Program-made: the position numbers and the translations under genes
Shown: one piece after another, positions 12,714 to 36,506 of the stretch
Layout: each line of letters starts with the position of its first letter
Numbering within the stretch: position 1 is the first letter of the stretch
Source of the DNA: Candidatus Thermosaccharophagus tengchongensis
Lineage (GTDB): Bacteria; Armatimonadota; Fervidibacteria; Fervidibacterales; Thermosaccharophagaceae
DNA length: 60,322 nucleotides
Direction: 5' to 3' (one strand)
Assembly: GCA_032161105.1 (NCBI GenBank)
Contig: JAVHTD010000018.1
The notes under the pieces: model-generated
Told to the model about the DNA's origin: nothing
Seen by the model: the letters and a program-made list of their open reading frames with translations, nothing else
Databases searched by the model: none

Positions 12714-12753
12714 CTTTGAGTTCGCCCTTGAAAGGATGTCGCAATCGGTGAGC

Positions 12754-13671
12754 CTATGATGCTGCCTTGCTCAACGCCCTCTCAAATGCCTTCGCCCTTG
12801 CTGCAATGACGGGTGCGCTGCACTCCCTTACGATGCGTTCGGCGACGCTCCCCCAAAGGAAGCGAGTTAAGCCCGTGCGACCGTGCGTCGTCATGATCAC
12901 AATGTCAATGTCATTCTCATCAACGAAGTCAAGGATGCCCTCAGTCGCGTGGTGTCTCTTGATGGCATGGCAATGCGTTTTTTCGCTCATGCCGTTTGCG
13001 GCTTCAGCCATCGCCTCAAGCTTCGTCTTGACCATCACCTCAAGCCTGTCTATCGTCTCACGCTCGCCAACGGCTTCAAGCAGCTCCATCACATGGAGGA
13101 CATGCACCGATGCGCCAATCAATTTTGCAAGCGCTATCGCATATGAGAGCGCATGCGAACTCGCCTCCGAGAGATCCGTCGGGACGAGCAGGTTGTCAAA
13201 CTTTGGCTTTCTCGGCTGGCTCATTGACAGCACCGGTTTATCCGAGCCCTGAATGATGCGCGCCGTCGTTGAGCCGAGCAGCCTCTCACCGATGCCACCG
13301 ATACCTTTTGTGCCTATGACGATCAAATCGGTATCGGACTTGTGCGCAAACTCAATCACGGCGTGATGCGCATCGCCCTGAAGGATGTGCACCTCTGCGC
13401 TTATGCCCATTGAGCGCAGCTCGCTTGCCCTTCCCTCAAGCCTCTCTATCGCTTCCTCTCTCATCTGCGCCAGCATATTGCCAAGCAGTATCGGTATCTC
13501 TGCAGGCAACGGCTCGAGCAACTGCCCGCTGGTGTATGCCATGGCGATGTCCGGTATGCAATGGACAAGCGCCACCTTTGAGTTCATGCGCTTTGCAAGC
13601 GGCAGGATAAAATCAAGCGCAGCATCGGAAAGCTCCGAGAAGTCAGTTGCCCATGTGATGTGCCTCCACAC
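12754..13671 (-). CDS. Universal stress protein (two tandem USP domains)
   Basis: ATDFSE...IVIGTKG...LLGSTTARI and PTDLSE...VIMTTHGRTGLTRFLWGSVAERIVR. Confidence 0.95.
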   Translation of the reverse strand: MWRHITWATDFSELSDAALDFILPLAKRMNSKVALVHCIPDIAMAYTSGQLLEPLPAEIPILLGNMLAQMREEAIERLEGRASELRSMGISAEVHILQGDAHHAVIEFAHKSDTDLIVIGTKGIGGIGERLLGSTTARIIQGSDKPVLSMSQPRKPKFDNLLVPTDLSEASSHALSYAIALAKLIGASVHVLHVMELLEAVGERETIDRLEVMVKTKLEAMAEAANGMSEKTHCHAIKRHHATEGILDFVDENDIDIVIMTTHGRTGLTRFLWGSVAERIVRECSAPVIAARAKAFERALSKAAS

Positions 13672-13721
13672 CCCTTTTCACCCCTGCGTCTCAGGGATAT
13701 TCGCAATGAGCTTGTTGCATT

Positions 13722-16700
13722 TTACCGCGCCACTGAAAAGCTCATTGACTCACCGAATGGCGAGTTGCGCCATCGCAACCTCAGCATGATGCGAACCGCT
13801 GACAGTTCCTTTGGCAACGGAATTTTGATGGCGTCAATCGTTACATCCTCAAATCGCCCGACGCTCTTCGGGATTGACACCCTTGCTGCTTCATGCCCAT
13901 CAACGCTGATGGAGAGCACGATCCCGTTTAGCGCGTCTTTGCATTGATCTGGTGGAAGCCATGTTGCTTCGCCCGTGTTGCCGAGCTCAACTTTGAGCCA
14001 TAACAACTCGGCGCCGCCAAAGCCGAGTTCTGCGAGTTTGATAACCTCACCATCGTTCACCTCACGCCATCGCCTGCCGTCAGGAGAAACGGAGATGGAG
14101 TTGATTTCTCCGTTTATGAATTTCGGCGGCTTCAATGGTTCCCATCTTGTGTTGCCGATTGCGATGTGTGGGACATCGTCGCAGGTTTTCCCTGTGCCTT
14201 CGGTGCGCAACTCAATTGCATAGCCCTCCCTTACGAGCCTTGATGCCTCATCACCGTGTTTCAGCCATAATGCCATTGCACCGCGCGCATTCTCATCTCG
14301 GTCAATCGTTATGTGGGCAACTTTCCTCCTTTCAACCGCTGGCATGTTGGCGAAGATAGTAGCCCATCTCTTCGCCACTTCACCGGCTGGGCGAATTGTC
14401 CCATCGGGATTGATGATCCCAAAGTCGCTTCTCTCACCCACTCGGTATCCGCCCGGAAACCACCACCCCATTGCACCATCGGCATTGCTGATTTGGATGA
14501 GGCGATAGATTGCATCATAGAGCTTAGCCTGCGCATTCAGCCCCTCCTCATCGCCATACCAGTCAAGCGAAAACGAGCCGTGCCTGAGCGTCAATCCAAA
14601 CTCAGCCCAAAAGACGGGCTTGCCATTCCCAGCCCAGCGAGCATAGGCAGTGATGAAGGCAGCCCTTGCGAACTGCTCCTCTTCAGCTTGCCCGAGCCAA
14701 CCGAGATTCCAACCCTCGGGAGAGACGAAATCCAAATGCTTTGCACCAGCCGTGTGGTCAAACGGGAATGCGCCCTCGGCACCGAATGGACCACCACCAT
14801 AGCCCGTGCGCGCGCCGATGAGGTGGTTTGGATCAAGCTTGCGAATGAACTGACAGACCCTGCGATATCGCCTGCTGATGAAGTCGTCAAGGAAGCGCCT
14901 GTATGCTGCCGCCATAACTCGCCACTCACCATCATTCAGAAGGTGCTCATCCCTCGGCACAGTGACATTTCCACCCTCGTCCCTTGGGAGCTTGAAGCCG
15001 AAGTCCCTTTCGGCTGCCTCAATGCTGCCGTAATTCTCAACGAGCCATTTTCTCCACTCGGCGTCGTGAGCGCGCCTATTGCCATAGCCTCCAAAATGCG
15101 GTTCCCATGCGATGTCATACGCAAACAGCGCCGGCTGATTGGGTAAGTCGGCGGATTCAATCAGCTGCTTGACGATGTCCGGGTTAAACCCAAGCGGGTG
15201 CGCTCCGGAGATGAACAGGTTCACTTTGATGCCGTGCTCATGGCATCGGCGAAGGAAGTCTCGGAGCGGCATCGCCTGATTGGCGTTGTAGAACGAGACG
15301 CTGACACAGTTCATCCCGATTGACTTCAGGATGCGCAGGTCTTCCTCAACCACCGTTGGATCGTAGTTGACTGGGTCAAGCCAATGGCGACCATAGTCAG
15401 TCGGCTCCTGACCGGCGATGAAGCGCGGCCAGTAGTTTAATCCGAAGGCAAACCAACGCCTGCCGCGATAAATGAAATGACCGCCACGAATTGTGATCCT
15501 GTCATTCTCGGTGACCTGTGGGCGCGCTGTGACGACGAGCTCGCTGTGCAACTCATCGCAAGCTACCTTACCGCCACCAGATGGACGGAGCAACCTCACA
15601 TTCACTTCGTATCGTCCGATTCCGAGTCTCGGCAGCTCCCATGTCACTGTTTCAATGTCGCCGGATGGGAGCTTGATGCTGTCGTTAAAGGACGCAATGG
15701 CTTTGGTTGCCACTTTTGCTCCGGCTGTTGGTTTGACCTCAATCACAATTTCAGCGTCGGCAGTCCTGCCACCGAAGTTAGCAACTCTTGCACCGAGCGT
15801 GATTGGTTCACCTTCGTAAGCCGTGAACTTATCCGCACCACCTTCAATGAGCACGATGCCCTCAATCAACCTTTCAATCGTCCTGCGGATGAAATTGACC
15901 GATGGCTTGCTAAGCCATAAATCCTCCACAGCACTCCCGAAACACAGCCACCAAGAGCGTGCATATGGCAATTCGGCATTGAGCATCAACCAAACTATCG
16001 GTGGGTTAGAAAGCGGCACATATCGGAATGGACGCCCATCAATGAAGCCGATGCCGGTGTGCCTCATCACTGGTGCAACTGCATCTTTTATCGGCGAGCG
16101 CACAGCCATCGTCTCAATCACTTGGGTCGGCATAGCGATAAAGCTGATGTTGTTCACTCGGCGCAGCGGGTAGAATTTGTAAGCCGGGCAAAGCGCCTCA
16201 AGTGATGGCGGTGCGAACTTGGTATCTATGCCCTCAATTGGGTCTTTGGCTGTGCCTATGCCAGCAATGAAAATGGCATGCTTGCCATGTGGCATTGGTC
16301 CTTCCATTCCGAAGACGAGTGTGCGCGCATTTTCAACTATGAGGCGGTCTCCAGAAAAGCCGCGCTTTCCAGCAGTTGGGCTATCGCCCCTGAAGATGAA
16401 ATCGCTTGGTGAGAGGACAAACAACTTCCACTCGGTGCTCAGTGGGACATGCGCATACCATCGTGAGCCATCGGCTTCACGCCATTCAATCATCATGGAT
16501 TTCGTTTGCGGAGAGCCCTTCGCCCAAAAGCACGTCAGTGTCTGACCGCTCGCAAACGGTGAGGTGGAGAATCCCCTTGAGAATATGCCCCAGCCCTTCA
16601 ACTCAAGCTCAATTTGAAACGCATCAAGTTCAAGCCCTTCGGATTTGAATGCAGAGCGCACAACACTGAGCTTATCGGAGACACCGCTATGGCTTGCCCC

Positions 16701-17753
16701 ATGCGTCCATCGCTTCAGCTCCGCTTCATCAATTCGCTCAAACAGCAACCGCTCCGGCTTCGTTGCCTTGCGCAGAGCGTCAACTTCGCCGGCTGTCATC
16801 CACTTCTCTCCAGCTCGTGTGCGCACACGGAACAATGCTTCCTCAAAAATCGGTGTGCCAAATGTGATGAGCTTCCCACCGCGCCTCAAAAATTCAAGCA
16901 GCCCATCCTTGCACGCAGCCGGCAAGCGCCTACCGTTTGGCAAGACAAGAATGCCGGCATCAATTGAGCGCCACCAGCTGTCATCGGAAAGCTCATTGAG
17001 TCCGACAAGCTTCACATCTATGCCGATGCCTTTGAGCTCCTTTGCGAGCGCATCACATAGGCGCAAATTGCCCATAGCTTCATCCCTAACCAAAACTGCG
17101 CTCTTCAAGTTGGGCACTGCACCTTCACCACCCTCAACCGATTGCCTTACACCCTCAAATGAGGCGCTCATCCCCTGCACATTCAAAGCCATCCATCCGG
17201 AGCGCACTATCGGTGCATTGTTAAGCGCATACCGTCTCCGCCACAGCAGTTTGCCATTTATGTCAAGCACTTGCCCCTCAATCTCAGCGCCGGTGAGCAG
17301 GATTCGCAACCGGTATCCTTCCCTCCACGACCATGAAAATGTTGCGCCATACTCCGCCGTCACCTTGAGCTTCAAATCGGCTTGTGCTTGCCATGTGCCA
17401 TTGCTCATAGCCACAAGCTCTGCGTATCTCGTTTTGGCATCTGGGGCTTCAACCAGCGCCAACCGCCAAAAGTTACCGCCATCTTGGTAAACGCAGATGC
17501 CAGCAGCCACCCAGCCATGCGCTATGCGCCTCTCGGGATGCATCAATGCCTCTGCCGTTTGTGCTCTACCATATCGGCTAAATGTCGGGATGGAAAATGC
17601 ATGTCCATCCGTGCTCTCTCCCACGACCTTACCATTCACAACCTCCCACTTGCCTCCGATGAAGCGCCACCTTGTGCTGCGCTGTAGAGACGAGGCTGGC
17701 TTGAAGAAAGCGCATAACAAGCACAAGCTTACTATGGCGCTGATAAGGCGCAT
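13722..17753 (-). CDS. Secreted multidomain glycoside hydrolase with a clan GH-A-like TIM barrel
   Basis: Signal peptide; GLNYWP strand; FAYDIAWEP (acid/base-like); KPVFWAEFG (nucleophile-like); GAMGWWF...DFGII. Flanked by lectin-like, flavodoxin-like and Ig-like regions. Confidence 0.7.
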   Translation of the reverse strand: MRLISAIVSLCLLCAFFKPASSLQRSTRWRFIGGKWEVVNGKVVGESTDGHAFSIPTFSRYGRAQTAEALMHPERRIAHGWVAAGICVYQDGGNFWRLALVEAPDAKTRYAELVAMSNGTWQAQADLKLKVTAEYGATFSWSWREGYRLRILLTGAEIEGQVLDINGKLLWRRRYALNNAPIVRSGWMALNVQGMSASFEGVRQSVEGGEGAVPNLKSAVLVRDEAMGNLRLCDALAKELKGIGIDVKLVGLNELSDDSWWRSIDAGILVLPNGRRLPAACKDGLLEFLRRGGKLITFGTPIFEEALFRVRTRAGEKWMTAGEVDALRKATKPERLLFERIDEAELKRWTHGASHSGVSDKLSVVRSAFKSEGLELDAFQIELELKGWGIFSRGFSTSPFASGQTLTCFWAKGSPQTKSMMIEWREADGSRWYAHVPLSTEWKLFVLSPSDFIFRGDSPTAGKRGFSGDRLIVENARTLVFGMEGPMPHGKHAIFIAGIGTAKDPIEGIDTKFAPPSLEALCPAYKFYPLRRVNNISFIAMPTQVIETMAVRSPIKDAVAPVMRHTGIGFIDGRPFRYVPLSNPPIVWLMLNAELPYARSWWLCFGSAVEDLWLSKPSVNFIRRTIERLIEGIVLIEGGADKFTAYEGEPITLGARVANFGGRTADAEIVIEVKPTAGAKVATKAIASFNDSIKLPSGDIETVTWELPRLGIGRYEVNVRLLRPSGGGKVACDELHSELVVTARPQVTENDRITIRGGHFIYRGRRWFAFGLNYWPRFIAGQEPTDYGRHWLDPVNYDPTVVEEDLRILKSIGMNCVSVSFYNANQAMPLRDFLRRCHEHGIKVNLFISGAHPLGFNPDIVKQLIESADLPNQPALFAYDIAWEPHFGGYGNRRAHDAEWRKWLVENYGSIEAAERDFGFKLPRDEGGNVTVPRDEHLLNDGEWRVMAAAYRRFLDDFISRRYRRVCQFIRKLDPNHLIGARTGYGGGPFGAEGAFPFDHTAGAKHLDFVSPEGWNLGWLGQAEEEQFARAAFITAYARWAGNGKPVFWAEFGLTLRHGSFSLDWYGDEEGLNAQAKLYDAIYRLIQISNADGAMGWWFPGGYRVGERSDFGIINPDGTIRPAGEVAKRWATIFANMPAVERRKVAHITIDRDENARGAMALWLKHGDEASRLVREGYAIELRTEGTGKTCDDVPHIAIGNTRWEPLKPPKFINGEINSISVSPDGRRWREVNDGEVIKLAELGFGGAELLWLKVELGNTGEATWLPPDQCKDALNGIVLSISVDGHEAARVSIPKSVGRFEDVTIDAIKIPLPKELSAVRIMLRLRWRNSPFGESMSFSVAR

Positions 17754-17951
17754 TCGTTCTCACCCCCAATCCTTCAACTGCCCTCACAAATTTTTGAACC
17801 AAATCGGTGTGCAGTCAATGGCGGTTAAGGCTCGTTTTATTCGGCGCATCGTTTGCGGCTTGGAATGCATGGCATGTTATGGCATGCGCTTTCTGCCCGC
17901 AAGAAGCCTCATGCGCAGGGTTGTTTGCGCCACTGCCGCCAATTGTGCACC

Positions 17952-19238
17952 TCATAGGATGATGAAGCACGAAATGTGCGGATGCAGTGTGTGTTCCTTA
18001 TCCAAGCGCAAGCACGCTCCGATGGCTAAGTTGCGGGAGACTTCCCACTGGATGCCGGCGTATATGCCGCCAGTGGTAAAGTGAATGTCAACCGATGTTC
18101 TCCTTGCCCTGTCAATGTCGCACAGCTCAAATGCAACTCCAACTCCGCCAATTCCACCTGCTGGCAGCATAAGTTCCTGCTTCAATGCGATGCTTGGCAC
18201 CTGTTTAAGTTTTGATGCAGCCTCGTTAGCGGGCATGTTCTCAAAGAGCGTCATCTTGAGAAAACTGACGATGGCATCCTTGAGCTGCGGAGCGCTCAGT
18301 TGGGTGCACAGGTGACCGGTGTGAAGGCGAATCATCGGCGGATGTTCAAGTGCCCTCCAAAGCTCAATGCATGCCCTCCTCGGGACGAACAAATCATACT
18401 CGCTCATGACCATCAAGAAGCGCTTCCCCTTTGCCCTCGGAGCATAAGTTGTTGGGTTGATCCAATAAACCATTGAGCGCAAAGCGTCAAGCGTTATGCC
18501 CTGCCTCTCAATGGAACGCCTGAATTGCCTCGTGAGCCAGCTGTCCCAAATTGTCAGTGCAAGGTCACCGCCGAGCACATTTACGCACACGGATAGTCGC
18601 TCATCCAAGCCGATGAGCAATGCTGCTATGATGCCGCCGAGGCTTATCCCGATGACGCCGAGCTTTGACCTGTCAATGAACGGCTGCATGCATAGCCAGT
18701 CGGTCAATCTCATTGCATCCATTGCAGCTTGTCTGAATGCTTGCATCGCATTTTGTGGCGCCACCTTGAAAAGGAACTGACCGCTGCCCATTCCCTTTGG
18801 TGCTCGGTGCATGTGATATGGGAGCTCCATAATTGCGCTTGCAATCCCGGATGAGGCAAGCGACTTGGCAAGGTATCGCTCGTTCACAGCGTCATAAACG
18901 CCAAGCGCGTGAAGTATGATGACAGCCGGGATGGACTTAGTAGCTGCGTGTTTGGGGATGTAAACGGTTGAATAAACGGTGTCGTTTTCGCTCACACCGG
19001 ACTTGAGCGCCGTCGGGAAACGGAGATTTAACACCTGCATGTTGCGGCTGCTGATTACTTCAGCCTCAAACTGTCCCGGCTCAATTGGCTGCGGCTTGAA
19101 CAATGAGACAAGCTGCTCAAGCTGGGCACACTGCGCGGGCAAGATGACGCTGTTGATGGCTTCATCGGATGTTGACGGCTCAATGACGCAACACAACCCA
19201 ATCAGCGTTGCCGCTATAAGCTGGCACATCCTCACCAT
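17952..19238 (-). CDS. Secreted alpha/beta hydrolase with a C-terminal beta-strand-rich extension
   Basis: Signal peptide, GISLG nucleophile, SEYDLFVP (Asp) and TGH (His). ATG at 19238 overlaps the upstream stop (ATGGTGA). Confidence 0.85.
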   Translation of the reverse strand: MVRMCQLIAATLIGLCCVIEPSTSDEAINSVILPAQCAQLEQLVSLFKPQPIEPGQFEAEVISSRNMQVLNLRFPTALKSGVSENDTVYSTVYIPKHAATKSIPAVIILHALGVYDAVNERYLAKSLASSGIASAIMELPYHMHRAPKGMGSGQFLFKVAPQNAMQAFRQAAMDAMRLTDWLCMQPFIDRSKLGVIGISLGGIIAALLIGLDERLSVCVNVLGGDLALTIWDSWLTRQFRRSIERQGITLDALRSMVYWINPTTYAPRAKGKRFLMVMSEYDLFVPRRACIELWRALEHPPMIRLHTGHLCTQLSAPQLKDAIVSFLKMTLFENMPANEAASKLKQVPSIALKQELMLPAGGIGGVGVAFELCDIDRARRTSVDIHFTTGGIYAGIQWEVSRNLAIGACLRLDKEHTLHPHISCFIIL

Positions 19239-20632
19239 CCGTATCTCTCCGGACCCCATTCTTTCCTCACCAACTCCTGCTTGACCAAGACGAGCGTTCG
19301 TGGTGGTAAGTCCTCGTATAGCACGACTCCCGGCCCAACAATGCTATAGCACCCGATCTTACATCCGGGCATGATGATGGCGTTCACTCCAGTTCGGCAA
19401 TAGTCCCCAATGTATGTAGCGTTTGCGCCGATGCGCGGTATCTCTCTCCTTGAGCGGATTGTGTGCACCTTCTCTAAGTCATCAAACCTCAGCGTCCCGC
19501 AAACCGTTGCAGCGCCTATGTCAACCGAACTTCCGACAACGCCGGCAACCTCACAGTAGTGGTAGAAGTAAGCGCCATCAAACGCGATGCCATCAAACTC
19601 GGCGGCGTGCCCGAGTATGCAACCATCGCCGAGAACGGAATTGCTCCCGAGGAGACAATAATCGCGCACCTTGCAATTTCGCCCAATGATGTTGTGACCG
19701 CGAAGTATCGCACCAGTCGTTATGCTTGTCCCGGAGCCAATCCAGGCATGCCCTTGTATCACAACGCCCTTCCCGATCACGCAATTTTCTCCCACGACGA
19801 TATTTCCGGTCACCTCAGCGCCATCCGAAATTTTTGCGCTCGGATGGATGATGCTCCCATCAAGCCTCTCCGACATCTCACGGACGACATGCACCGTCGC
19901 TTCAATCAGATGCCATGGCTTGTCCAAGTCAACGGCAAACCCGGGAACCTCAATTGCTTGCACTTCCTCATCGCCCTCAATCATCATTTGCACCGATTGG
20001 GCAAGCTCCGCTTCCACAGGTGGCATCATGCCTACTTGGACGCTCCTCATGATTCCCGGATTTGATCGGATGTATTTGATGGCGCCTCTGTGGAAGATGA
20101 AAGCCCCAACGAGCCTGTGAGTCACACCGCCCCTTGGATGCCCAAGGATGCATTTTAGCTTGCCGTTGTGCACCGACGCGCAAATCCATTCCCTCATGTC
20201 AAGCTGTCCAATTGGCTGAACGAGCACAGATGCAATTGGTTGCGCATTCTCATGGTGGTGAATCATCACTTGCGTCCATCCATCCGAGATGACCAAATCG
20301 CCGTATGCGACGAGGAATTGTTCTCCGGCTTGTTCGTAGCCGAGTTCGTCAAGTGCGCAAAGCAATGCGTGAGCGGTGCCAAGCTGCTCATCCTGTCTGA
20401 TGAAGACAATGCGTGCCTCATCAAAGTCAAAGAGGGCGTGCCGAACTTGGCTTTCCATGTATCCGACGACAACGGCTATTTGCCTTATGCCGGCGAGTGC
20501 GAGTTGCTCAATAAGCCTCCTTATGGCTGGCTTGTTGGCTATCGGGATGGCGCATTTTTGCCTCGTGTCACAGTATGGGAACATCTTCTTCCCGAAGCCG
20601 GCAGCGAGCACAATCGCAGTTTGAATTGGCAC
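19232..20632 (-). CDS. Bifunctional sugar-1-phosphate nucleotidylyltransferase/acetyltransferase (archaeal-type GlmU-like)
   Basis: LAAGFGKKMFP, EQLGTAHA, YGD, hexapeptide left-handed beta-helix repeats and GTLRFDD...IGDYCRTGVN. GGAGG RBS before a GTG start. Confidence 0.85.
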   Translation of the reverse strand: MPIQTAIVLAAGFGKKMFPYCDTRQKCAIPIANKPAIRRLIEQLALAGIRQIAVVVGYMESQVRHALFDFDEARIVFIRQDEQLGTAHALLCALDELGYEQAGEQFLVAYGDLVISDGWTQVMIHHHENAQPIASVLVQPIGQLDMREWICASVHNGKLKCILGHPRGGVTHRLVGAFIFHRGAIKYIRSNPGIMRSVQVGMMPPVEAELAQSVQMMIEGDEEVQAIEVPGFAVDLDKPWHLIEATVHVVREMSERLDGSIIHPSAKISDGAEVTGNIVVGENCVIGKGVVIQGHAWIGSGTSITTGAILRGHNIIGRNCKVRDYCLLGSNSVLGDGCILGHAAEFDGIAFDGAYFYHYCEVAGVVGSSVDIGAATVCGTLRFDDLEKVHTIRSRREIPRIGANATYIGDYCRTGVNAIIMPGCKIGCYSIVGPGVVLYEDLPPRTLVLVKQELVRKEWGPERYGW

Positions 20633-22507: not shown

Positions 22508-25500
22508 ATGTTCAAGCCTCGCTTGCATCAAATTGGAGTTGTCTCATTCATCCTCACACTCTCGGCTATCTTAAGCGCTGCTGCGCAGTCAACTACAGCT
22601 TACACGGAGCTTTATGAAGGTGTTGATGAAGCACGCATAAGGGAAGCGGTTGAGCATTTGAGTTCGCTTGACTCAAGGGTGTGCGGCTATTCTGGTGAAA
22701 GGCAGGCGGCTGAATGGGTCAAGCAGAAGTTTTATGAACTGGGTTTGGATGAGCTTGAGTTGCCAGCACTGAAGGGTGGCAAAGTAACCACGGAGAAATT
22801 GAGGGAGTTAAAGTTCAAGGTCACGACGCCAATTGACAAAGGCGCATCAATTGAGCTGCCGCTGCTGGGCAAGTCGTTCAAGCTTTACCCAATGTGGCCA
22901 AATTTGGTGCGCACACCACAACTCCCACCTGAGGGGATTGAGGGACGAATCATTTATGCCCGCACCGGCAAGCTATCCGAGTTCAGGGGCAAAGATGTGA
23001 AGGGCTCAATAGTGCTGCTTGATTTTGTGACCGGTTCGGAATGGTTCAATGCGCCATTCCTCGGTGCGAGAGCTGTGATATTCATTGAGCCAGATCCAAA
23101 GGATATGGCTCGTTGGGAGGCTGAGCTTAAGTTCCTGACGACGCCAATTGACATACCGCGCTTTTGGATGAGAAGAGATGATGCCATGCAATTGCTCTCC
23201 ATGATTCACCGCAACGGTGAGAAGCCTCTTACTGCGCGCCTGCGTTGCCGCATGGAATGGGAGGAGGTGGAGGTCAAGGATATCCTTGGCGTCATTTGGG
23301 GGACAGACCCATCGCGCAAGAACCAGTTTATCGTTATCAGTGCCTATTATGATTCAATGTCTGTAGTGCCGTCGCTTGCCCCGGGTGCTGAGCAGGCAAA
23401 CTCAATTGCGATACTGCTTGAGCTTGCAAGGCTGTTCAAGAAGATGCCGCTTGATAGGACGGTTGTGTTCCTCGCCACATCCGGGCACTGCTTCGGCTTG
23501 AAAGGTGCTGCTCATTTCATCCGATATTGGTTGGACAAGGAGAATGAGTGGGGGAAAATTACAGCCTCGTATCCAAATGCCGTCGTTCCCCAATTGCTCG
23601 CATTTATTGCCGTTGACATCTCCTCACGCTCACCCACATTCGGCGTCTTCTACAAGGCGCATTTCTTTGATTACACCGAAAACATCCAATGGCAGTTCTC
23701 CGACATAGGCAAGTTCTGCCGTGAGTCAGCCGAGAGGATTGGCTTCACATTTTGGTTTGATGCAGAGCGCTACTTCGTTGACGGCATTAACCCAATCAAG
23801 GGCAAGAACTGGAGGACATACCTTCCGGGGATGCTTGCGCTTGATAGCGAAGTTGCAACCGTTGCCGGTAAGACGGGCATAGGCTTTGCCACTGTTGATG
23901 ATGCCCGTCCGCTCGTTGATACGCCTCATGACATGACAAGCTATGTGAACTTTGAAAATGTGGTCAGGCAAGCGAGGATGCTATCTTGCATGCTCTACGA
24001 CCTCATAAACGCTCCGACCAGCCTATTGAAGTTGCAGCTTGAGAACAATTTCTCAATCGTCAAAGGACAGCTCATTTGGTTTGACCCGGAAAAGAGCACA
24101 ACGAGCGTCCCAGATCAACCCGTTAAGGGTGCAATAGCATGCATGCGCCATACGGCTGTGCCAAAGAAAACAATGATGGGAGTCAGAACTGTTCTGTTTG
24201 ACAAGGTTGAGCGGTTGCCACTCGGGAAAAGAACGCAAATCCCGTATGGTCCGCTTGTGCTCATCATCCTCGTTGCGACATGCGCATCTGTGCTCTCTGG
24301 TATGGCAAAGCGCACCAAAAAGTCAATAGCCATTGGGATACTTGTTGCCATAGTGATTGATGCAGCCATAATTTGGTTCCGTCACCCGATAGCTTACTTG
24401 CTTGCTGGTAAGCCGAAGGTCGAGGAGGAGTTGAAGGATGCCGTTTTTGAGTTTGTTGGCTTCCCGCAGTCTAAGTTCAGAGGGGGCAACATACGGGTCG
24501 AGGGTTACAGGCTTAATCCTGTGACCGGAGAGATTGATTACGCGCCGGACATGGGCTTCAATGGTGCGCAGGCATGCCCAATTGAGTTTGCAATTGATGT
24601 GGCTGACAAGCAGACTTCGGTTGTGCTTTTCCCGTGCAAGCCTATGGCGATATTTGACATGATTGACCAAAGGCGCTTTTGGTTGCTGCGCGAAATCTAC
24701 ATCTACGATGCCGTCACCGGTGCCGAGCCATTCAACTACGGCTATTCGCTACCTGTGCCGCAACCACTGACATCACACTATGAGCCATGTGCTGTTGTAT
24801 ATGCGACTCCGGGAACAAGGGTAAAGGTGACGATGGGCGCTACGGTGCTTGGGTTGCTTTTCACCTTACTCAACACCGATAAGCAGCTCATTGACCGCCC
24901 CGAACTCGTCCAACACGCAACTGACGATCAATACCTCGGAGTTGGCTTCAAAGTTGATGACCACCCGTCTATACCGATAACGCCATACGAAGTGGCACAG
25001 GATATGTGGGTGATTGACCATCAAAGGATTATCAAGCTGCGCCGCTACGGAATAGAGAATGAGCGCATGCGCATGATGCACGAGCAGGCGAGGGAGTTCC
25101 TGCTTGAGGCGAGGAAGGAACTTGAGAAGCGCAACTATGACACATTCGTCACATTCGCGAGGGCTGCATGGAGCTACGAATCAAAGGCATACCCAGATGT
25201 CCGAAAGACAGCAATGGATGTCATCAAGGGCATCATCTTCTACCTCATGCTCCTTCTCCCGTTCGCTTACTTCTGTGAGCGCCTCTTCTTCTACATGACC
25301 GACTTGAAGTGGCAGATAGCTGTGACGGTCCTCATATTTGCTGTCATCTCGTTCATCATGAGATACTTCCACCCAGCATTTGCCATCATCAACACTACCC
25401 CGATGGTCATCATACTCGGCTTCATCATACTCGCGCTCTCAATCGTCGTCTCCGTCATAGTCATGCGCAAGTTTGAGGACCAGATGCGCCAGATAAAGTT

Positions 25501-27355
25501 TGAGACAACCGGAATACACACAGCCGATGTTGGCAGGTTCACAGCAGTTGCATCGGCTTTCTCTCTTGGCGTGGGTAACATGCGCCGAAGGAAAGCTCGC
25601 ACTGTCTTGACCGCCACCACGCTCATCTTGCTCACATTCACCGTTATCTCGTTCACATCTGTTGTCCCGACAACGCGCATCAACATGATTCCGGTTAAAC
25701 GGGCGGAGCCAACTTATAGGGGCATTTTGATAAGGAGCCGAAACTGGGATCCGCTTGGTGAGCCGACAACGCGCATCATAAGGGATCAATACGGACGAAA
25801 GTATACGGTTGCCCCGAGGGCATGGTATTTCTCGGCGATGGTTGGGGAACAATCATTCATTAGGGTTTGGCATGGCACACGATATTACGATGTGACCGCG
25901 ATAGTTGGCATGTCGCCACAGGAGGAGAAGGTGACGAACATCAAGGAAGCCGTAATAGGCAGCTGGCTCACATCGGAGACGGAGCCGCAGTGCCTAATAC
26001 CGTTACGCATGGCGAGATGGTTTGGAATAAGGGAGAGGGACATACTTGAGGGCGAGAAGACATTCATACAGGTGCTCGGGATGAGAGTCCCCGTCATCGG
26101 CATCATAGACTCCGAGAAAATGAAGAAGGTCGTTGACCTTGATGGCGAGATGCTAACCCCAGTTGACTACCTGATGATGCAAGAGAGAAGACGAGTCCAA
26201 GAGCAACCAACAGGTCAAGAGGCTATGGAGCTTGAGGAATACATTCACCTATCGCCGGATCAGGTCATCATTATGCCGTATGGTATGCTAATGTCAGCTG
26301 GTGGCAACCTTCGCTCTGTGGCGATAAGGTTTGACTGGAAGGATAGGAAGGAAGCAATGAGAGAGCTCAGGCAAATGATGGACAGAGTTGAGCTCAACTT
26401 GTTTGCATCAATTCCGGAGAGGGGCAAGCTCACAACATACCTTTGTAGCGCTATTGGCGCAACTGGGTTGAGAGGGGTTGAGAGCATTTGGATTCCGATG
26501 CTTATAGCTGCACTTGTTGTGCTGACAACGATGCTCGGTTCGGTATATGAGCGAGTCCGTGAGATCGGAATTTACACTGCACTTGGGCTTGCCCCAAGCC
26601 ACATCGGAGCGCTCTTCCTCGCCGAGTCATCAGTGTATGCAGTTCTCGGAGCAATCGTTGGATACTTGATTGGTCAGGTGATCGCAAAGCTACATGTGGC
26701 ATACAACCTGTTTGCTGGCTTGAGCTTGAACTATTCCTCACTTGCTGCCGTGTTTACAACCGCATTCGTCATGCTCGTCGTAATCGCATCAACTGCATAT
26801 CCAGCATGGCAGGCTTCAAGGGTATCCGTGCCCGGAATTGAAAGGCGCTGGAAGTTGCCCGAACCTGAGGGTGACTACTTGAGGATGACACTGCCATTTA
26901 CAGTTGCAAATGTGCAGGCACTCGGCGTCATCGCTTTCCTCAAGGAATACCTTGAGGCGCATGCCGACTACTCACTCGGTCAGTTCTCAACCGACAAAGT
27001 GCTCCTCTCCTCCTACAGCACCGAGTATGGCGAAGGCTACAGGCTTGAGGCTATGGTCTGGCTTGCTCCGTATGACCTCGGTGTAAGTGAATACTTCATC
27101 CTTGAGACGCAGCCAACGAAGGACATATTTGCAAACGAGATCCACATCACGATCAGGCGTGAGAGCGGTGACGAAGCCTCATGGATGCGCGTGACGAGAA
27201 ACTTCCTCAACCTCATCCGCAAGCAATTCCTCATATGGCGCACATTCCGAGTTGAGATAAAAGAGCGCTACAGGGAGATGGGCTTTGAAGCACTTATGGA
27301 AGCCAAGGGTGCAATTGAAAGGACATTGACTGAGGGTTCCAGCAGTGGTGAATAA
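22508..27355 (+). CDS. M28-like (PA-containing, degenerate) ectodomain fused to a MacB/FtsX-type ABC permease
   Basis: Signal peptide; PA-like GRIIYARTG..DVKGSIVLLDF; M28-like SAYYDS..APGAEQ..LLELAR; multiple TM helices; MacB-type NMRRRKARTVLT and VYERVREIGIYTALG. Confidence 0.85.
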   Translation: MFKPRLHQIGVVSFILTLSAILSAAAQSTTAYTELYEGVDEARIREAVEHLSSLDSRVCGYSGERQAAEWVKQKFYELGLDELELPALKGGKVTTEKLRELKFKVTTPIDKGASIELPLLGKSFKLYPMWPNLVRTPQLPPEGIEGRIIYARTGKLSEFRGKDVKGSIVLLDFVTGSEWFNAPFLGARAVIFIEPDPKDMARWEAELKFLTTPIDIPRFWMRRDDAMQLLSMIHRNGEKPLTARLRCRMEWEEVEVKDILGVIWGTDPSRKNQFIVISAYYDSMSVVPSLAPGAEQANSIAILLELARLFKKMPLDRTVVFLATSGHCFGLKGAAHFIRYWLDKENEWGKITASYPNAVVPQLLAFIAVDISSRSPTFGVFYKAHFFDYTENIQWQFSDIGKFCRESAERIGFTFWFDAERYFVDGINPIKGKNWRTYLPGMLALDSEVATVAGKTGIGFATVDDARPLVDTPHDMTSYVNFENVVRQARMLSCMLYDLINAPTSLLKLQLENNFSIVKGQLIWFDPEKSTTSVPDQPVKGAIACMRHTAVPKKTMMGVRTVLFDKVERLPLGKRTQIPYGPLVLIILVATCASVLSGMAKRTKKSIAIGILVAIVIDAAIIWFRHPIAYLLAGKPKVEEELKDAVFEFVGFPQSKFRGGNIRVEGYRLNPVTGEIDYAPDMGFNGAQACPIEFAIDVADKQTSVVLFPCKPMAIFDMIDQRRFWLLREIYIYDAVTGAEPFNYGYSLPVPQPLTSHYEPCAVVYATPGTRVKVTMGATVLGLLFTLLNTDKQLIDRPELVQHATDDQYLGVGFKVDDHPSIPITPYEVAQDMWVIDHQRIIKLRRYGIENERMRMMHEQAREFLLEARKELEKRNYDTFVTFARAAWSYESKAYPDVRKTAMDVIKGIIFYLMLLLPFAYFCERLFFYMTDLKWQIAVTVLIFAVISFIMRYFHPAFAIINTTPMVIILGFIILALSIVVSVIVMRKFEDQMRQIKFETTGIHTADVGRFTAVASAFSLGVGNMRRRKARTVLTATTLILLTFTVISFTSVVPTTRINMIPVKRAEPTYRGILIRSRNWDPLGEPTTRIIRDQYGRKYTVAPRAWYFSAMVGEQSFIRVWHGTRYYDVTAIVGMSPQEEKVTNIKEAVIGSWLTSETEPQCLIPLRMARWFGIRERDILEGEKTFIQVLGMRVPVIGIIDSEKMKKVVDLDGEMLTPVDYLMMQERRRVQEQPTGQEAMELEEYIHLSPDQVIIMPYGMLMSAGGNLRSVAIRFDWKDRKEAMRELRQMMDRVELNLFASIPERGKLTTYLCSAIGATGLRGVESIWIPMLIAALVVLTTMLGSVYERVREIGIYTALGLAPSHIGALFLAESSVYAVLGAIVGYLIGQVIAKLHVAYNLFAGLSLNYSSLAAVFTTAFVMLVVIASTAYPAWQASRVSVPGIERRWKLPEPEGDYLRMTLPFTVANVQALGVIAFLKEYLEAHADYSLGQFSTDKVLLSSYSTEYGEGYRLEAMVWLAPYDLGVSEYFILETQPTKDIFANEIHITIRRESGDEASWMRVTRNFLNLIRKQFLIWRTFRVEIKERYREMGFEALMEAKGAIERTLTEGSSSGE

Positions 27356-33588: not shown

Positions 33589-33615
33589 GTGGGATTTGAG
33601 GTGCAGGTGGTAGAA

Positions 33616-34995
33616 ATGCCCAAAATTAGCCGAAGAAATATCCTGAAAGCGGCATTGGGCGGGGCAATCGGGTTAAGGATAAGCGACTTTAAAAGTATGG
33701 CGGGAGAGCAACGAAAACCGAATATAATCGTCATTATCGTTGACGATATGGGATATGCTGATGTTGGCTTTCAGGGTTGCGAGGATATACCGACACCAAA
33801 TATTGATTCGTTGGCGAAAAATGGGATAAAATTCACAAATGGCTATGTCTCACATCCATGGTGTGCGCCAACAAGAGCCGGTTTGATAACAGGGCGATAT
33901 CAACAGCGCTTTGGGTTTGAACATAACCCTCGTTTTGATTTTAACGACGAGATCGCAGGCATATCCGAGGGCGAAACTACCCTCCCACAGTTGCTGAAGG
34001 AGGCTGGCTATTCGTGTGGTATAGTCGGCAAATGGCACTTGGGTGCCCATGAGAAGTTTCACCCAATAAAGAGAGGCTTTGATGAGTTTTTTGGATTTAG
34101 GGGTGGCGGGCACGATTATTTCAAGTCACGCGATACAATTGATGCACCAATGTATCAATTGCCACTTGAACGGAATTTTGGCAAATGGGAACCGCTTAAG
34201 GGCTACCTAACTTTTGTCATCGCTGATGAGGCAGTTCAATTCATCAAACGCCACTCTAATAAGCCATTTTTCCTATACCTTGCTTTCAACGCTCCGCATG
34301 CCCCTTTGCAGGCTCCTGAGGAATATGTCCGCAAATTTGAGCACATTTCTGACAAACGGCGGCGGCTTTATGCCGCAATGGTAAGTGCCCTTGATGATGC
34401 TGTCGGTCAGGTCATACGGACTATTCGTGATTTAGGCATGGAGGAAGATACCGTCATCTTCTTCCTGAGTGATAATGGTGGTCCAATTGGCGATGCAAGT
34501 AATGGTTCACGTAATGACCCGCTTCGTGGCGGTAAAGGCGGATTGTATGAGGGTGGAATTCGTGTGCCGTTTGTCATCCAGTGGAAGAGGGGCTTGCCAG
34601 CTGGAAAAGTTTATGAGCATCCAATCATCTGTCTTGACATTTTTACAACTGCATTGGCAATTGCGGGTGCCCCTCTTCCAAAGGATAGGAAAATTGACGG
34701 TGTGAATTTGCTGCCATATTTGCGCGGTGAACGGATAGAAATGCCGCATGAATTTCTGTTCTGGCGAATTGGCGGCGGCACATGGATGGCTGTGAGAAAT
34801 GCTCGCTACAAACTGCACCGAAGGAAAAACGGGGATGTTGAGCTTTATGACTTGCATGCCGATGTTGGGGAGCAGAAAAATATAGCAAAAGACCTGCCCA
34901 AAGTTGTAGAGCAGTTGAACGAGGTTTTGGATAAGTGGAATTCCGAACTTATCTCGCCAATTGTCCCACCGCCCAAGAAGGGAGAGGCAACATAG
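33616..34995 (+). CDS. Cys-type sulfatase (S1) with a twin-arginine leader
   Basis: SRRNILK, IVDDMG, CAPTR, GKWHLG, SDNG and YEGGIRVPF. Confidence 0.95.
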   Translation: MPKISRRNILKAALGGAIGLRISDFKSMAGEQRKPNIIVIIVDDMGYADVGFQGCEDIPTPNIDSLAKNGIKFTNGYVSHPWCAPTRAGLITGRYQQRFGFEHNPRFDFNDEIAGISEGETTLPQLLKEAGYSCGIVGKWHLGAHEKFHPIKRGFDEFFGFRGGGHDYFKSRDTIDAPMYQLPLERNFGKWEPLKGYLTFVIADEAVQFIKRHSNKPFFLYLAFNAPHAPLQAPEEYVRKFEHISDKRRRLYAAMVSALDDAVGQVIRTIRDLGMEEDTVIFFLSDNGGPIGDASNGSRNDPLRGGKGGLYEGGIRVPFVIQWKRGLPAGKVYEHPIICLDIFTTALAIAGAPLPKDRKIDGVNLLPYLRGERIEMPHEFLFWRIGGGTWMAVRNARYKLHRRKNGDVELYDLHADVGEQKNIAKDLPKVVEQLNEVLDKWNSELISPIVPPPKKGEAT

Positions 34996-35095
34996 TTTGA
35001 AATTGACACAGAATGACGACAAAAACGGGTCATGATTAGGAGAAGTCCCTGCAAAAGCCCAAATACGAATGGCAATTGGCGTGGAAGTGAGGAAG

Positions 35096-36505: not shown

Positions 36506-36506
36506 A

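What the first reader, a model, noticed from the sequence alone, without database searches (positions are those of the whole stretch)
22508..27355. Nicastrin/nicalin-like pseudo-peptidase fused to a MacB/FtsX permease, a candidate uncharacterised membrane machine
Seen: the M28 Zn-ligand motifs are degenerate. HxD is YYD, GADD is GAEQ and the catalytic EE is replaced (ATSGHCFG). From memory, AYYDSMSVVPSLAPGAEQANSIAILLELARLF resembles the non-catalytic M28 domains of eukaryotic nicalin and nicastrin, which act as receptors or scaffolds in membrane complexes. The chain continues through extra TM helices, a MacB-type TM1-periplasmic domain-FtsX unit and a soluble C-terminal domain. No ABC ATPase is adjacent, and the gene is divergent from a clostripain lipoprotein. 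Inference: a receptor-coupled mechanotransmission or transport system for peptides or glycans, with partners encoded elsewhere.
Basis: partly seen in the sequence, partly recalled or inferred. Interest (0 to 1): 0.75.

Follow-up and report, generated by a model that had tools for sequence, protein, structure and literature searches.

The report
Giant subunit of ABC-OPT envelope machine
This gene encodes the giant membrane subunit of a conserved but unstudied six-protein, ATP-driven envelope machine whose outer peptidase-like head has a rebuilt metal site; its partner genes lie on three other contigs of this genome.

Summary

The nicastrin/nicalin label is weak, because active bacterial PA-M28 aminopeptidases are closer. 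"Partners encoded elsewhere" is right, and I found them:
- a mini-FtsX, a LolD/MacB-class ATPase and a PqqD-like peptide chaperone on contig C41;
- an OPT-like permease on C3;
- a Cys/His-rich cytoplasmic protein on C15.

In other Armatimonadota these six genes form one cluster. The OPT-like gene follows the giant in 59 of 66 loci that have room for it. Giant, OPT-like and mini-FtsX were found in 126, 127 and 125 of 151 sampled genomes, with nearly the same presence pattern.

The most likely function is a type VII ABC motor that works a ligand-binding head and feeds an OPT-fold permease, probably with peptides. I found no paper on it. This scan has met the same module before on other DNA.

The parts
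22508..27355 (+). Whole gene: 1615-aa giant M28/PA-FtsX membrane protein, single copy in the genome
22508..22585 (+). Signal peptide (aa 1-26; hydrophobic core 8-26, AAA/QS)
   Evidence: hydropathy; sequence; cleavage site inferred
22586..24022 (+). Extracytoplasmic head (aa 27-505): complete M28 aminopeptidase fold with an inserted PA domain
22910..23287 (+). PA (protease-associated) insert, about aa 135-260; borders approximate
   Evidence: Pfam PA E 0.031, below cut-off. Alignments to the PA-bearing BSAP, TfR and GCPII cover 386-409 residues, against 268 for PA-less AAP
23345..23353 (+). YYD (aa 280-282) in place of HxD; over 191 relatives Y280 in 180, Y281 in 174, D282 in 186
23384..23395 (+). 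GAEQ (aa 293-296) in place of GA(N/D)D(N/D); E295 in 184 of 191
23483..23491 (+). GHC (aa 326-328): H327 opposite the catalytic Glu (184 of 191); position 328 opposite the ligand Glu is F 137, C 38, H 9
23615..23617 (+). D370 (184 of 191), probable equivalent of the fourth M28 ligand Asp
   Evidence: the equivalence is inferred from motif and strand position, not from a residue-level alignment
23900..23932 (+). DARPLVDTPHD (aa 465-475): D471 opposite the last ligand His; D465 in 189, R467 in 186, D471 in 183, D475 in 189 of 191
   Evidence: (alignments to BSAP and LapB)
24023..24250 (+). Beta-rich linker between head and membrane (aa 506-581), lower model confidence
24251..24379 (+). TM hairpin (aa 582-624)
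24380..25219 (+). Second extracytoplasmic region (aa 625-904): beta-rich part of low confidence, then a three-helix stalk (about 824-904)
   Evidence: no Pfam family
25220..25462 (+). Three further TM helices (aa 905-985)
25463..25609 (+). Cytoplasmic linker with an amphipathic helix and the RRRKAR motif ahead of MacB TM1 (aa 986-1034)
   Evidence: invariant columns
25610..26482 (+). MacB-type TM1 (aa 1035-1053) and periplasmic domain (aa 1054-1325)
26483..26797 (+). FtsX domain, TM2-TM4 (aa 1326-1430)
   Evidence: Pfam FtsX 5.2e-13; PDB profile hits LolF 7e-10 and MacB 1.2e-9
26798..27352 (+). Cytoplasmic C-terminal alpha/beta domain (aa 1431-1615), the signature of the family (APYDLGVSE, RKQ[YF]L[LI]WRT)

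Best explanation
The gene encodes the large permease subunit of a conserved six-component envelope machine built around a type VII (MacB/FtsX-class) ABC motor.

Shown: the domain anatomy; the rebuilt but conserved M28 site; the existence and genomic linkage of five partner genes; and their presence in this genome on other contigs. The partners are a mini-FtsX C41:1764-2507, a LolD/MacB-class ATPase C41:2629-3471, a PqqD-like protein C41:130-672 (-), an OPT-like permease C3:2624-4594 (-), and a Cys/His-rich cytoplasmic protein C15:5285-6226 (-).

Inferred (about 0.85): the giant and the mini-FtsX form an asymmetric permease pair served by a dimer of the C41 ATPase, as LolC/LolE are served by LolD.

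Inferred (about 0.55): the M28/PA head does not work as a di-zinc aminopeptidase. It acts as a ligand-binding head whose conserved Tyr/Tyr/Asp/Glu/His/Asp pocket holds a peptide end, possibly with one metal ion.

Inferred (about 0.4): ATP binding and hydrolysis move the stalk, the periplasmic domain and the head. A peptide-like ligand caught outside is thereby handed to the OPT-fold permease, which carries it across the membrane. The PqqD-like chaperone and its Cys/His-rich partner receive it in the cytoplasm. The basis is that MacB-class permeases are not known to carry substrates across the cytoplasmic membrane themselves (recalled knowledge), so the OPT-like protein is the only plausible conduit. 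The giant-OPT pair looks like the specificity module and the mini-FtsX/ATPase like a shared motor.
For: Anatomy.

Site: over 191 relatives no sequence has the canonical set, while Y280 (180), Y281 (174), D282 (186), E295 (184), H327 (184), D370 (184), D465 (189), R467 (186), D471 (183) and D475 (189) are kept (mapping).

Family: 1213 hits at E<=0.001 among 7995 scored. All 120 listed carry FtsX and 116 of them also M28. 593 of 599 candidate stretches in species-representative genomes encode a relative.

Linkage:
- The OPT-like gene starts within 1.5 kb downstream (median about 100 nt) in 59 of 66 loci with at least 2.2 kb of room, across Armatimonadota, Latescibacterota, Planctomycetota, Gemmatimonadota and Poribacteria.
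- The ATPase ortholog lies directly upstream in 35 of 62 loci with room.
- In all 10 further loci taken from 10 other Armatimonadota families, the order is giant, OPT-like, Cys/His-rich protein (9 of 10), PqqD-like, mini-FtsX, ATPase.

Phyletic pattern in 151 Armatimonadota genomes: giant 126, OPT-like 127, mini-FtsX 125. The printed per-family tallies are identical except in f16 and f18, and 19 of the 20 listed no-match genomes are shared by all three searches. All 10 genomes with two or more giant places have 2-3 OPT-like matches; 9 of them have one mini-FtsX match and 1 has none (same calls).

Own genome: each partner has one clear ortholog. The ATPase is 73% identical (2.1e-121) against 49% for the next paralog; the mini-FtsX scores 1.2e-42; the OPT-like 6.8e-225 is the only match; the Cys/His protein scores 6.5e-72; the PqqD-like 4.5e-31. 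The genome has four FtsX-domain genes. Two sit beside their own ATPase, a MacAB-like set on C29 and a probable FtsEX on C6. That leaves the C41 ATPase for the mini-FtsX and the giant. The C41 ATPase has intact Walker A, Q-loop, LSGGQ, Walker B and H-loop.

Peptide link: all 3 PqqD-like proteins tested pass Pfam PqqD (1.2e-10 to 3.9e-14). 3 of 37 OPT-like members hit Pfam OPT (best 1.5e-9). The copy beside the giant in G026 passes the OPT cut-off. Sources name homologs 'peptide transporter' or 'OPT/YSL family transporter'.
Against: No binding, transport or direction of transport was tested.

The window's own OPT-like protein has no Pfam or NCBIfam hit, and its family profile finds no solved structure by sequence. 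OPT membership therefore rests on a minority of members and on language-model similarity.

In this genome and its genus the genes are scattered over four contigs, so co-expression is not implied by position. Seven of 66 loci lack the OPT-like neighbour: 2 of this genus and 5 Latescibacterota.

Strict conservation of H327, D370, E295 and D471 would also fit an active, non-canonical catalytic or metal site. One of the best structural matches is 2anp, whose entry title calls the E151H aminopeptidase mutant functional.

Presence in about 83% of a whole phylum suggests a housekeeping envelope role rather than nutrient uptake.

Genomes in the sample are related, so the co-occurrence counts overstate independence.
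Confidence: 0.5

Rival explanations
1. The head is a working hydrolase with a remodelled active site: a single metal held by E295/D370/D471, or metal-independent catalysis with H327 as base. The ABC motor switches it on and off, as FtsEX switches cell-wall hydrolases, and the OPT-like permease takes up the released peptides (for example cell-wall or surface-layer peptides).
Against: Both ligand histidines are replaced (Y280, D471), and the ligand Glu is replaced by F, C or H, so the known di-zinc chemistry cannot form. The genome has a separate probable FtsEX pair on C6. No peptidoglycan-binding or hydrolase-activator domain was seen in this protein. A PqqD-like chaperone has no known place in hydrolase control.
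Confidence: 0.2
2. The module exports and matures a ribosomal peptide. The PqqD-like protein and the Cys/His-rich protein bind a precursor in the cytoplasm, the membrane parts move it out, and the M28-like head trims or holds it outside.
For: PqqD-family proteins are peptide chaperones of RiPP pathways (NCBIfam names; Pfam hits). The ATPase resembles those of bacteriocin and darobactin exporters as well as LolD and MacB (DarD 7.7e-63, lactococcin-972 type 1.7e-56).
Against: No conserved small ORF was found in 23 loci; every conserved cluster of 25-110-aa ORFs was a shadow of a known gene. No radical SAM, cyclase, YcaO or other modifying enzyme belongs to the conserved set. No membrane-fusion or outer-membrane partner is conserved. 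A single-copy module present in 126 of 151 genomes of a phylum and in several other phyla is unlike a natural-product cluster. All PqqD-type NCBIfam scores are below their cut-offs.
Confidence: 0.1
3. The machine extracts a hydrophobic envelope component (lipoprotein, lipid or lipid-linked intermediate) from the membrane, as LolCDE, HrtBA or YbbAP-TesA do. The OPT-fold protein would act as a flippase-like partner, and the cytoplasmic C-terminal domain as a lipid-binding module.
Confidence: 0.08
4. One reading: a nicastrin/nicalin-type pseudo-peptidase scaffold that works without an ABC ATPase of its own.
For: Nicalin is a significant sequence match over about 75-93 residues (2e-5 with the profile, 1.8e-4 with the single sequence). 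The di-zinc ligands are not canonical. No ATPase is in the window.
Against: Pfam Nicastrin is below its cut-off (12.6 against 25 bits). Active bacterial aminopeptidases are closer in both sequence and structure. A dedicated ATPase with intact motifs co-occurs with, and in many genomes adjoins, the gene.
Confidence: 0.03

Closest known systems
MacB of the MacAB-TolC pump (type VII ABC)
   Different: The ATPase is a separate gene on another contig. There are five extra TM helices, an N-terminal M28/PA head, a second ectodomain and a unique cytoplasmic C-terminal domain. No membrane-fusion or TolC-like partner is conserved in the module. The conserved partners are instead an OPT-like permease, a PqqD-like protein and a Cys/His-rich protein.
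LolCDE
   Same: The inferred arrangement: two unlike FtsX-type permeases sharing a dimer of one ATPase. The ATPase scores 7.3e-69 against LolD, though below its cut-off.
   Different: The second permease is a 238-247-aa mini-FtsX with almost no periplasmic loop. NCBIfam LolC/LolE scores are far below cut-off. No LolA-like partner is known.
FtsEX with EnvC, PcsB, RipC or CwlO
   Different: The hydrolase-fold domain is fused in cis and is M28, not a LytM/M23, CHAP or NlpC type. The genome has a separate probable FtsEX pair on C6. FtsX_Gneg scores 12.5 bits against a cut-off of 255.
PA-domain M28 aminopeptidases (Bacillus subtilis BSAP/YwaD 6hc6, Aneurinibacillus 2ek8, Pseudomonas PaAP) and Aeromonas/Vibrio aminopeptidase 1amp
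   Different: Ligand positions read Y280, E295 or a gap, C328 (F in most relatives), D370 and D471, and the catalytic Glu is H327. The domain is membrane-tethered within a 1615-aa permease.
Nicalin, nicastrin and transferrin receptor (M28-fold proteins without peptidase activity in membrane complexes)
   Different: These are no closer than active enzymes. Pfam Nicastrin is below its cut-off. Here the substituted residues are almost invariant. The partner proteins are unrelated.
YbbAP-TesA (type VII ABC with a hydrolase partner)
   Different: TesA is a separate, active lipid hydrolase. That system has no OPT-like or PqqD-like partner.
OPT/YSL oligopeptide and metal-chelate transporters (for the partner on C3)
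   Same: Size and many-TM build. A minority of family members hit Pfam OPT (3 of 37; 5 of 120 precomputed). The nearest language-model clusters are OPT or DUF6784/DUF6785.
   Different: The window genome's own copy has no Pfam or NCBIfam hit. No OPT transporter is known to me to work with an ABC motor (recalled knowledge, not a search result).

Membership tests
Peptidase family M28 (co-catalytic zinc aminopeptidases) | M28 alpha/beta fold | tested here: met
Peptidase family M28 (co-catalytic zinc aminopeptidases) | Pfam PF04389 above the gathering score | tested here: met
   37.3 bits against 21.3, but only profile positions 5-79 of 193
Peptidase family M28 (co-catalytic zinc aminopeptidases) | Five zinc ligands His, Asp, Glu, Asp, His (numbering in the Aeromonas enzyme recalled: H97, D117, E152, D179, H256) | tested here: not met
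   Y280, E295 or a gap, C328 (F 137, C 38, H 9 of 191), D370 and D471. No canonical set in any of 191 relatives. The D370 equivalence is inferred.
Peptidase family M28 (co-catalytic zinc aminopeptidases) | Catalytic general-base Glu (first E of the EE pair) | tested here: not met
   H327, kept in 184 of 191
Peptidase family M28 (co-catalytic zinc aminopeptidases) | Peptidase activity and metal content | not testable with these tools
   Needs purified protein
Nicastrin / nicalin | Pfam Nicastrin (PF05450) above the gathering score | tested here: not met
   12.6 bits against 25, E 0.1
Nicastrin / nicalin | Closer to nicalin or nicastrin than to active M28 enzymes | tested here: not met
   By sequence: nicalin 2e-5 against 2ek8 4.3e-17 and BSAP 1.1e-14 (profile); 1.8e-4 against 7.4e-8 (single sequence)
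Nicastrin / nicalin | Structural match to nicastrin or nicalin lobes | tested here: inconclusive
   Not among the rows shown by Foldseek or VIA; a family that is not listed is not excluded
Type VII ABC (MacB/FtsX-class) permease | FtsX four-helix unit, with TM1 separated from TM2-4 by an extracytoplasmic domain | tested here: met
   Pfam FtsX 5.2e-13; hydropathy; Foldseek MacB, LolCDE, HrtBA and YtrEF
Type VII ABC (MacB/FtsX-class) permease | MacB-like periplasmic domain fold | tested here: met
Type VII ABC (MacB/FtsX-class) permease | Cognate LolD/MacB/FtsE-class ATPase | tested here: met
   By genomics only. The ATPase adjoins the giant in 35 of 62 loci with room and lies in the cluster in 10 of 10 further loci. 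The own-genome ortholog on C41 is 73% identical (2.1e-121) with intact motifs. Physical pairing was not tested.
Type VII ABC (MacB/FtsX-class) permease | ATP-driven mechanotransmission | not testable with these tools
   Needs biochemistry or structures in several nucleotide states
FtsX proper (cell-division FtsEX) | NCBIfam FtsX equivalog score | tested here: not met
   FtsX_Gneg 12.5 bits against 255; a separate FtsX-domain gene beside an ATPase lies on C6
LolC/LolE | NCBIfam LolC/LolCE score | tested here: not met
   LolC 22 bits against 473; lolCE 17 against 362
RiPP biosynthetic gene cluster (for the module) | RiPP recognition element (PqqD-like) | tested here: met
   Pfam PqqD 42-53 bits against 23.4 in 3 of 3 tested; own copy on C41
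RiPP biosynthetic gene cluster (for the module) | Precursor peptide gene | tested here: inconclusive
   No conserved 25-110-aa ORF in 23 loci apart from shadows of known genes; very short or distant precursors would be missed
RiPP biosynthetic gene cluster (for the module) | Recognisable modifying enzyme in the conserved set | tested here: not met
   The conserved set is giant, OPT-like, Cys/His-rich protein (no family), PqqD-like, mini-FtsX and ATPase
OPT family (for the partner on C3) | Pfam OPT PF03169 above the gathering score | tested here: inconclusive
   The own protein has no hit. 3 of 37 family members hit (best 1.5e-9). The copy beside the giant in G026 scores 27.9 bits against 25.8.

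The most novel reading that the evidence does not exclude
This is a new class of envelope machine in which a type VII ABC motor does not itself transport. It mechanically operates a rebuilt M28/PA receptor head that loads an OPT-fold secondary permease, making a hybrid of an ATP-driven capture device and a proton-type carrier. The interchangeable giant-OPT pairs would set specificity, and one shared mini-FtsX/ATPase motor would drive them. The conserved Tyr-Tyr-Asp/Glu/His/Asp pocket could bind a metal-peptide or another peptide cofactor, which a cytoplasmic PqqD-like chaperone then receives.
Probability: 0.25. Interest if true: 0.85.

Novelty: new variant of a known kind. Interest (0 to 1): 0.7.

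Why it matters
Type VII ABC systems (MacAB-TolC, LolCDE, FtsEX, YbbAP-TesA, HrtBA, BceAB) each turned out to do a distinct job in the cell envelope. This family would add one more, with parts never seen together in a described system: a fused peptidase-fold head with a rebuilt, strictly conserved pocket, an OPT-fold permease, and a PqqD-type peptide chaperone.

The family is large. Its C-terminal signature domain finds at least 1392 clusters at 50% identity, and the protein is encoded in 593 species-representative genomes. It was found in about five of six sampled Armatimonadota and occurs in several other phyla, yet databases annotate it only as 'M28 family peptidase' or 'FtsX-like permease'. 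Such annotations would wrongly count it as a secreted aminopeptidase.

For this genome the practical result is that a seemingly orphan permease gets its ATPase and four other partners, although they are scattered over four contigs. A cultivated relative, Fervidibacter sacchari, carries a homolog family, so the system can be tested.

Tried and rejected
1. Predicted complex of the giant's extra TM segments (aa 572-632 and 860-1055) with the OPT-like protein. The result was no verdict (score 0.01, mark 0.32, controls not run). It counts neither for nor against binding.
2. Conserved small ORFs as candidate precursor peptides in 23 loci. Only frame shadows of known genes were found.
3. Pfam and NCBIfam on the own OPT-like protein, the Cys/His-rich protein, the C-terminal domain and the second ectodomain gave no family.
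4. Sequence searches of solved structures with the OPT-like sequence and profile and with the Cys/His-rich profile gave 0 hits at E<=1 or 10.
5. The ESM Atlas gave no usable hit for the C-terminal domain.
6. Nicastrin and nicalin were not among the 50 rows shown by Foldseek or VIA for the head. This is an absence from a list, not an exclusion.
7. The clostripain neighbour as a functional partner was rejected. It is adjacent only in 3 of 80 loci, all of this genus. DUF4349 and the nucleotidyl-transferase neighbour were found in none of the 80.
8. A broad neighbour clustering over 80 loci found no other cross-phylum neighbour besides the OPT-like gene.
9. Canonical OPT genes in the phylum for a profile comparison: only 3 of 41 genomes had any hit at E<=1e-5, and these were weak, so no clean reference set could be built.
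10. Expression: one metatranscriptome library holds four short contigs (223-280 nt, 95-97% alike) on the gene. The tool warns that DNA can be present in such a library, so I do not count this as shown transcription.
11. Literature:
- 'M28' + 'FtsX' + 'Armatimonadota' gave 4 papers, none on this protein.
- Passages of PMC11535203 mention only that M28 family peptidases were detected in Fervidibacter sacchari cultures. I did not open its supplements, which might show whether the homolog is among them.
- 'PqqD' + 'FtsX' gave 0 papers.
- 'DUF6785' or 'DUF6784' gave 0 papers.
- 'type VII ABC', 'mechanotransmission' and 'peptidase M28' gave 28 papers with two of the terms; the 10 listed contain 'peptidase M28' 0 times.
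- One search was badly posed and useless.
12. The first script for the site columns used trimmed alignments and gave wrong columns. It was redone correctly.
Full report
**What is there**

Pfam recognises only two pieces. One is the first 75 positions of Peptidase_M28 (residues 265-343, 3e-9, above the cut-off). The other is an FtsX domain (1330-1440, 5.2e-13). The Nicastrin model scores below its cut-off (12.6 against 25 bits). All NCBIfam hits (ADOP, MacB, LolC, FtsX) are far below their cut-offs.

Hydropathy gives a signal peptide, a TM hairpin at 582-624, three TMs at 905-985, a TM at 1035-1053 and three more at 1326-1430. On this topology the two large N-terminal regions and the region 1054-1325 lie outside the cytoplasmic membrane, and the last 185 residues lie inside.

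**The head**

An AlphaFold model of residues 27-581, built on 40 aligned relatives, is confident (pLDDT 91.3, pTM 0.91).
- Foldseek ranks the PA-domain aminopeptidases 2ek8 (1.2e-24) and BSAP/YwaD (2.8e-22) first, followed by transferrin receptor, Pseudomonas PaAP and glutamate carboxypeptidase II.

So the head is a complete M28 fold with a PA insert, not a fragment. Pfam misses the second half only because it has diverged.

HMMER alignments to solved enzymes fix the motif equivalences:
- AHYDS corresponds to AYYDS, so the ligand His becomes Y280.
- GANDxxSG corresponds to GAE-QANS, which is one residue shorter. The bridging Asp is therefore lost or replaced by E295.
- GAEELGL corresponds to SGHCFGL, so the catalytic Glu becomes H327 and the ligand Glu becomes C328.
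- YHTPED corresponds to VDTPHD, so the last ligand His becomes D471.
- D370 sits where the fourth ligand Asp is expected. That equivalence is my inference from motif and strand position.

The residue numbers of the Aeromonas enzyme used in the report are recalled, not taken from a call.

**Rebuilt, not decayed**

I aligned 191 family members to a family profile: the window protein, 119 database relatives and 71 ORFs from species-representative genomes, reaching down to 35-40% identity and into other phyla. None has the canonical ligand set. The replacements, however, are almost invariant:

| Position | Kept in (of 191) |
|---|---|
| Y280 | 180 |
| Y281 | 174 |
| D282 | 186 |
| E295 | 184 |
| H327 | 184 |
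| D370 | 184 |
| D465 | 189 |
| R467 | 186 |
| D471 | 183 |
| D475 | 189 |

Position 328 is F in 137, C in 38 and H in 9. This is the signature of a pocket under selection for a different job. That job could be ligand binding, a different metal, or non-canonical catalysis.

By sequence, nicalin is a real but short match (2e-5 with the profile, 1.8e-4 with the single sequence, over 75-93 residues). It is weaker than the active enzymes (4.3e-17, 1.1e-14 and 7.4e-8).

**The membrane half**

A model of residues 560-1614 is of middling confidence overall (pLDDT 71), but good for the periplasmic domain and the C-terminal domain.
- Foldseek finds MacB (4.4e-10), LolCDE, HrtBA, YtrEF and YbbAP.

This is therefore a type VII ABC permease module, preceded by five family-specific TM helices and a periplasmic three-helix stalk.

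**Family and partners**

The family is large:
- 1213 hits among 7995 scored candidates. All 120 listed carry FtsX and 116 of them also M28. They are annotated 'M28 family peptidase', 'FtsX-like permease family protein' or 'Aminopeptidase YwaD'.
- 593 of 599 candidate stretches in species-representative genomes encode a relative. These are mostly Armatimonadota, but also Latescibacterota, Poribacteria, Planctomycetota and Gemmatimonadota.

The window's organism is an Armatimonadota bacterium of the Fervidibacter relationship. It is 93% identical to a MAG labelled Armatimonadota and 88% identical to 'Candidatus Thermosaccharophagus'.

A motif scan showed an ABC ATPase gene just upstream of the giant in 36 of 80 loci. 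Reading those loci gave the operon mini-FtsX (about 240 aa), ATPase (about 295 aa, with an N-terminal zinc ribbon), giant, and a 660-aa polytopic membrane protein.

Counted properly:
- The 660-aa gene starts within 1.5 kb after the giant (median about 100 nt) in 59 of the 66 loci with at least 2.2 kb of room. The seven exceptions are two loci of this genus and five Latescibacterota loci.
- The ATPase ortholog is directly upstream in 35 of 62 loci with room.

Ten more loci, taken from ten other Armatimonadota families, all show a second arrangement. The order there is giant, 660-aa protein, a 300-350-aa cytoplasmic protein with invariant Cys/His positions (seen in 9 of the 10), a 130-175-aa protein, mini-FtsX and ATPase.
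- The small protein passes Pfam PqqD in 3 of 3 tested (1.2e-10 to 3.9e-14). NCBIfam names the family members peptide chaperones, but all their scores here are below the cut-offs.
- The Cys/His-rich protein has no family, no solved relative and only 'hypothetical' names.

The 660-aa protein has no Pfam hit in most members. Several lines nevertheless tie it to the OPT superfamily:
- 3 of 37 members hit OPT, with a best E-value of 1.5e-9.
- 5 of 120 listed homologs carry a precomputed OPT hit, and sources call some 'peptide transporter' or 'OPT/YSL family transporter'.
- The copy beside the giant in genome G026 passes the OPT cut-off.
- The protein-language-model search puts it next to OPT and DUF6784/DUF6785 clusters.

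I therefore call it OPT-like and leave membership open.

**The partners in this genome**

All five are present, each with one clear ortholog, but on other contigs:

| Partner | Place | Evidence |
|---|---|---|
| Mini-FtsX | C41:1764-2507 | 1.2e-42 |
| ATPase | C41:2629-3471 | 73% identical, 2.1e-121, against 49% for the next paralog |
| PqqD-like | C41:130-672 (-) | 4.5e-31 |
| OPT-like | C3:2624-4594 (-) | 6.8e-225, the only match |
| Cys/His-rich protein | C15:5285-6226 (-) | 6.5e-72 |

The genome has four FtsX-domain genes. The one on C29 sits with its own ATPase and an upstream gene that I take, from its sequence alone, to be an HlyD-like adaptor. The one on C6 sits next to another ATPase and is probably FtsEX. 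That leaves the C41 ATPase for the mini-FtsX and the giant. Its Walker A, Q-loop, LSGGQ, Walker B and H-loop are intact, and it lacks the zinc ribbon seen in other classes.

**Phyletic pattern**

In a sample of 151 Armatimonadota genomes the giant was found in 126, the OPT-like protein in 127 and the mini-FtsX ortholog in 125. The printed per-family tallies agree in all three searches except in f16 and f18. Of the 20 no-match genomes listed, 19 are the same in all three.

All 10 genomes with two or more giant places have two or three OPT-like matches. Nine of them have a single mini-FtsX match and one has none. This suggests that giant and OPT-like multiply together while the motor is shared. 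The genomes are related, so these counts are not independent trials.

**How it most likely works**

Shown: the anatomy, the linkage and the co-occurrence.

Inferred, with my odds:
- About 0.85: the giant pairs with the mini-FtsX under a dimer of the C41-type ATPase. This gives an asymmetric type VII ABC complex with one large periplasmic assembly.
- About 0.55: the head binds rather than cleaves by di-zinc chemistry.
- About 0.4: the ATP cycle moves the stalk, the periplasmic domain and the head so that a peptide-like ligand is passed to the OPT-fold permease and taken up. The PqqD-like chaperone and the Cys/His-rich protein then receive it.

The last step rests on recalled knowledge that MacB-class permeases act on the outer face and are not known to conduct substrates across the cytoplasmic membrane.

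The rivals are given with their evidence in the rival section. They are a motor-regulated, non-canonical hydrolase (FtsEX-like logic), a ribosomal-peptide export system, and a lipid or lipoprotein extractor.

**Comparison and novelty**

It works like a type VII ABC system. It meets the fold-level features of that class, and by genomics it has the right kind of ATPase. It is not FtsX, LolC/E or MacB by their curated models.

It has the M28 fold but fails the defining ligand and catalytic-residue tests, so it should not be filed as an M28 peptidase.

I found no paper that describes an M28-FtsX fusion or an FtsX/OPT/PqqD module. About 1.7 million PubMed Central articles are not searchable with this tool.

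This scan has met the same six-gene module before on other DNA, including notes on Poribacteria and archaeal versions. I saw those notes only after deriving the module here. They agree with my reading but are not independent evidence.

New in this window are three things: the fully dispersed arrangement, the residue-level conservation table for the rebuilt pocket, and the hint of a shared motor.

**Limits**

No interaction, activity, ligand or direction of transport has been tested. The one complex prediction gave no verdict.

Noticed in passing
window 53897-55039 (+): A 380-aa ORF with a second partial M28 hit in the same window (Pfam positions 1-90 of 193, 47.9 bits, at 54080-54397). The genome has five M28 hits in all, and only the one on C4 covers the whole profile.
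   Followed up: no
window 33589-42416 (+): A run of four sulfatase genes with a CBM_4_9 protein and an O-methyltransferase, typical of sulfated-polysaccharide use. It coincides with a lower-GC stretch (0.43-0.49 against about 0.53).
   Followed up: no
window 1-8742 (+): Two very large ORFs (1353 aa open at the 5' end, and 1499 aa) in a lower-GC, strongly GC-skewed stretch (GC 0.46, skew 0.17-0.25). Neither was annotated here.
   Followed up: no
window 13722-17753 (-): A 1343-aa ORF with only a weak GH42 beta-galactosidase hit (9.3e-6) over residues 872-1050. Most of the protein is unassigned.
   Followed up: no
L041:8810-9694, L051:8787-9701, L035:9936-10841: In Armatimonadia, Zipacnadia and WS1 loci the module's ATPase has an N-terminal zinc-ribbon-like CPxC...CPxC extension of about 40 aa. 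The ATPase of the window's genome (C41:2629-3471) lacks it.
   Followed up: partly
L070 and L072 (Latescibacterota chromosomes): Hits to the giant span about 11 kb (8474-19357 and 8474-19388), which suggests tandem paralogs. These loci lack the OPT-like neighbour.
   Followed up: no
G038:C121, G024:C2, G008:C2 (same genus as the window): Matches to the mini-FtsX run through one in-frame stop near the N-terminal end in all three genus relatives. The annotated start of the window genome's copy (C41:1764) may therefore be too far upstream.
   Followed up: no
L041:17076-17888 and neighbours; L035:18316-20658: In Armatimonadia and Zipacnadia loci the module is followed by prepilin-type (N_methyl + DUF1559) genes and an FtsW/RodA gene before the Cys/His-rich protein gene. 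This may be mere synteny among relatives.
   Followed up: partly
G000:C1:142180-142545: A separate 669-aa open frame in the own genome gives a weak Pfam OPT hit (E 0.0046, below cut-off). It is not found with the C3 OPT-like protein as query.
   Followed up: no
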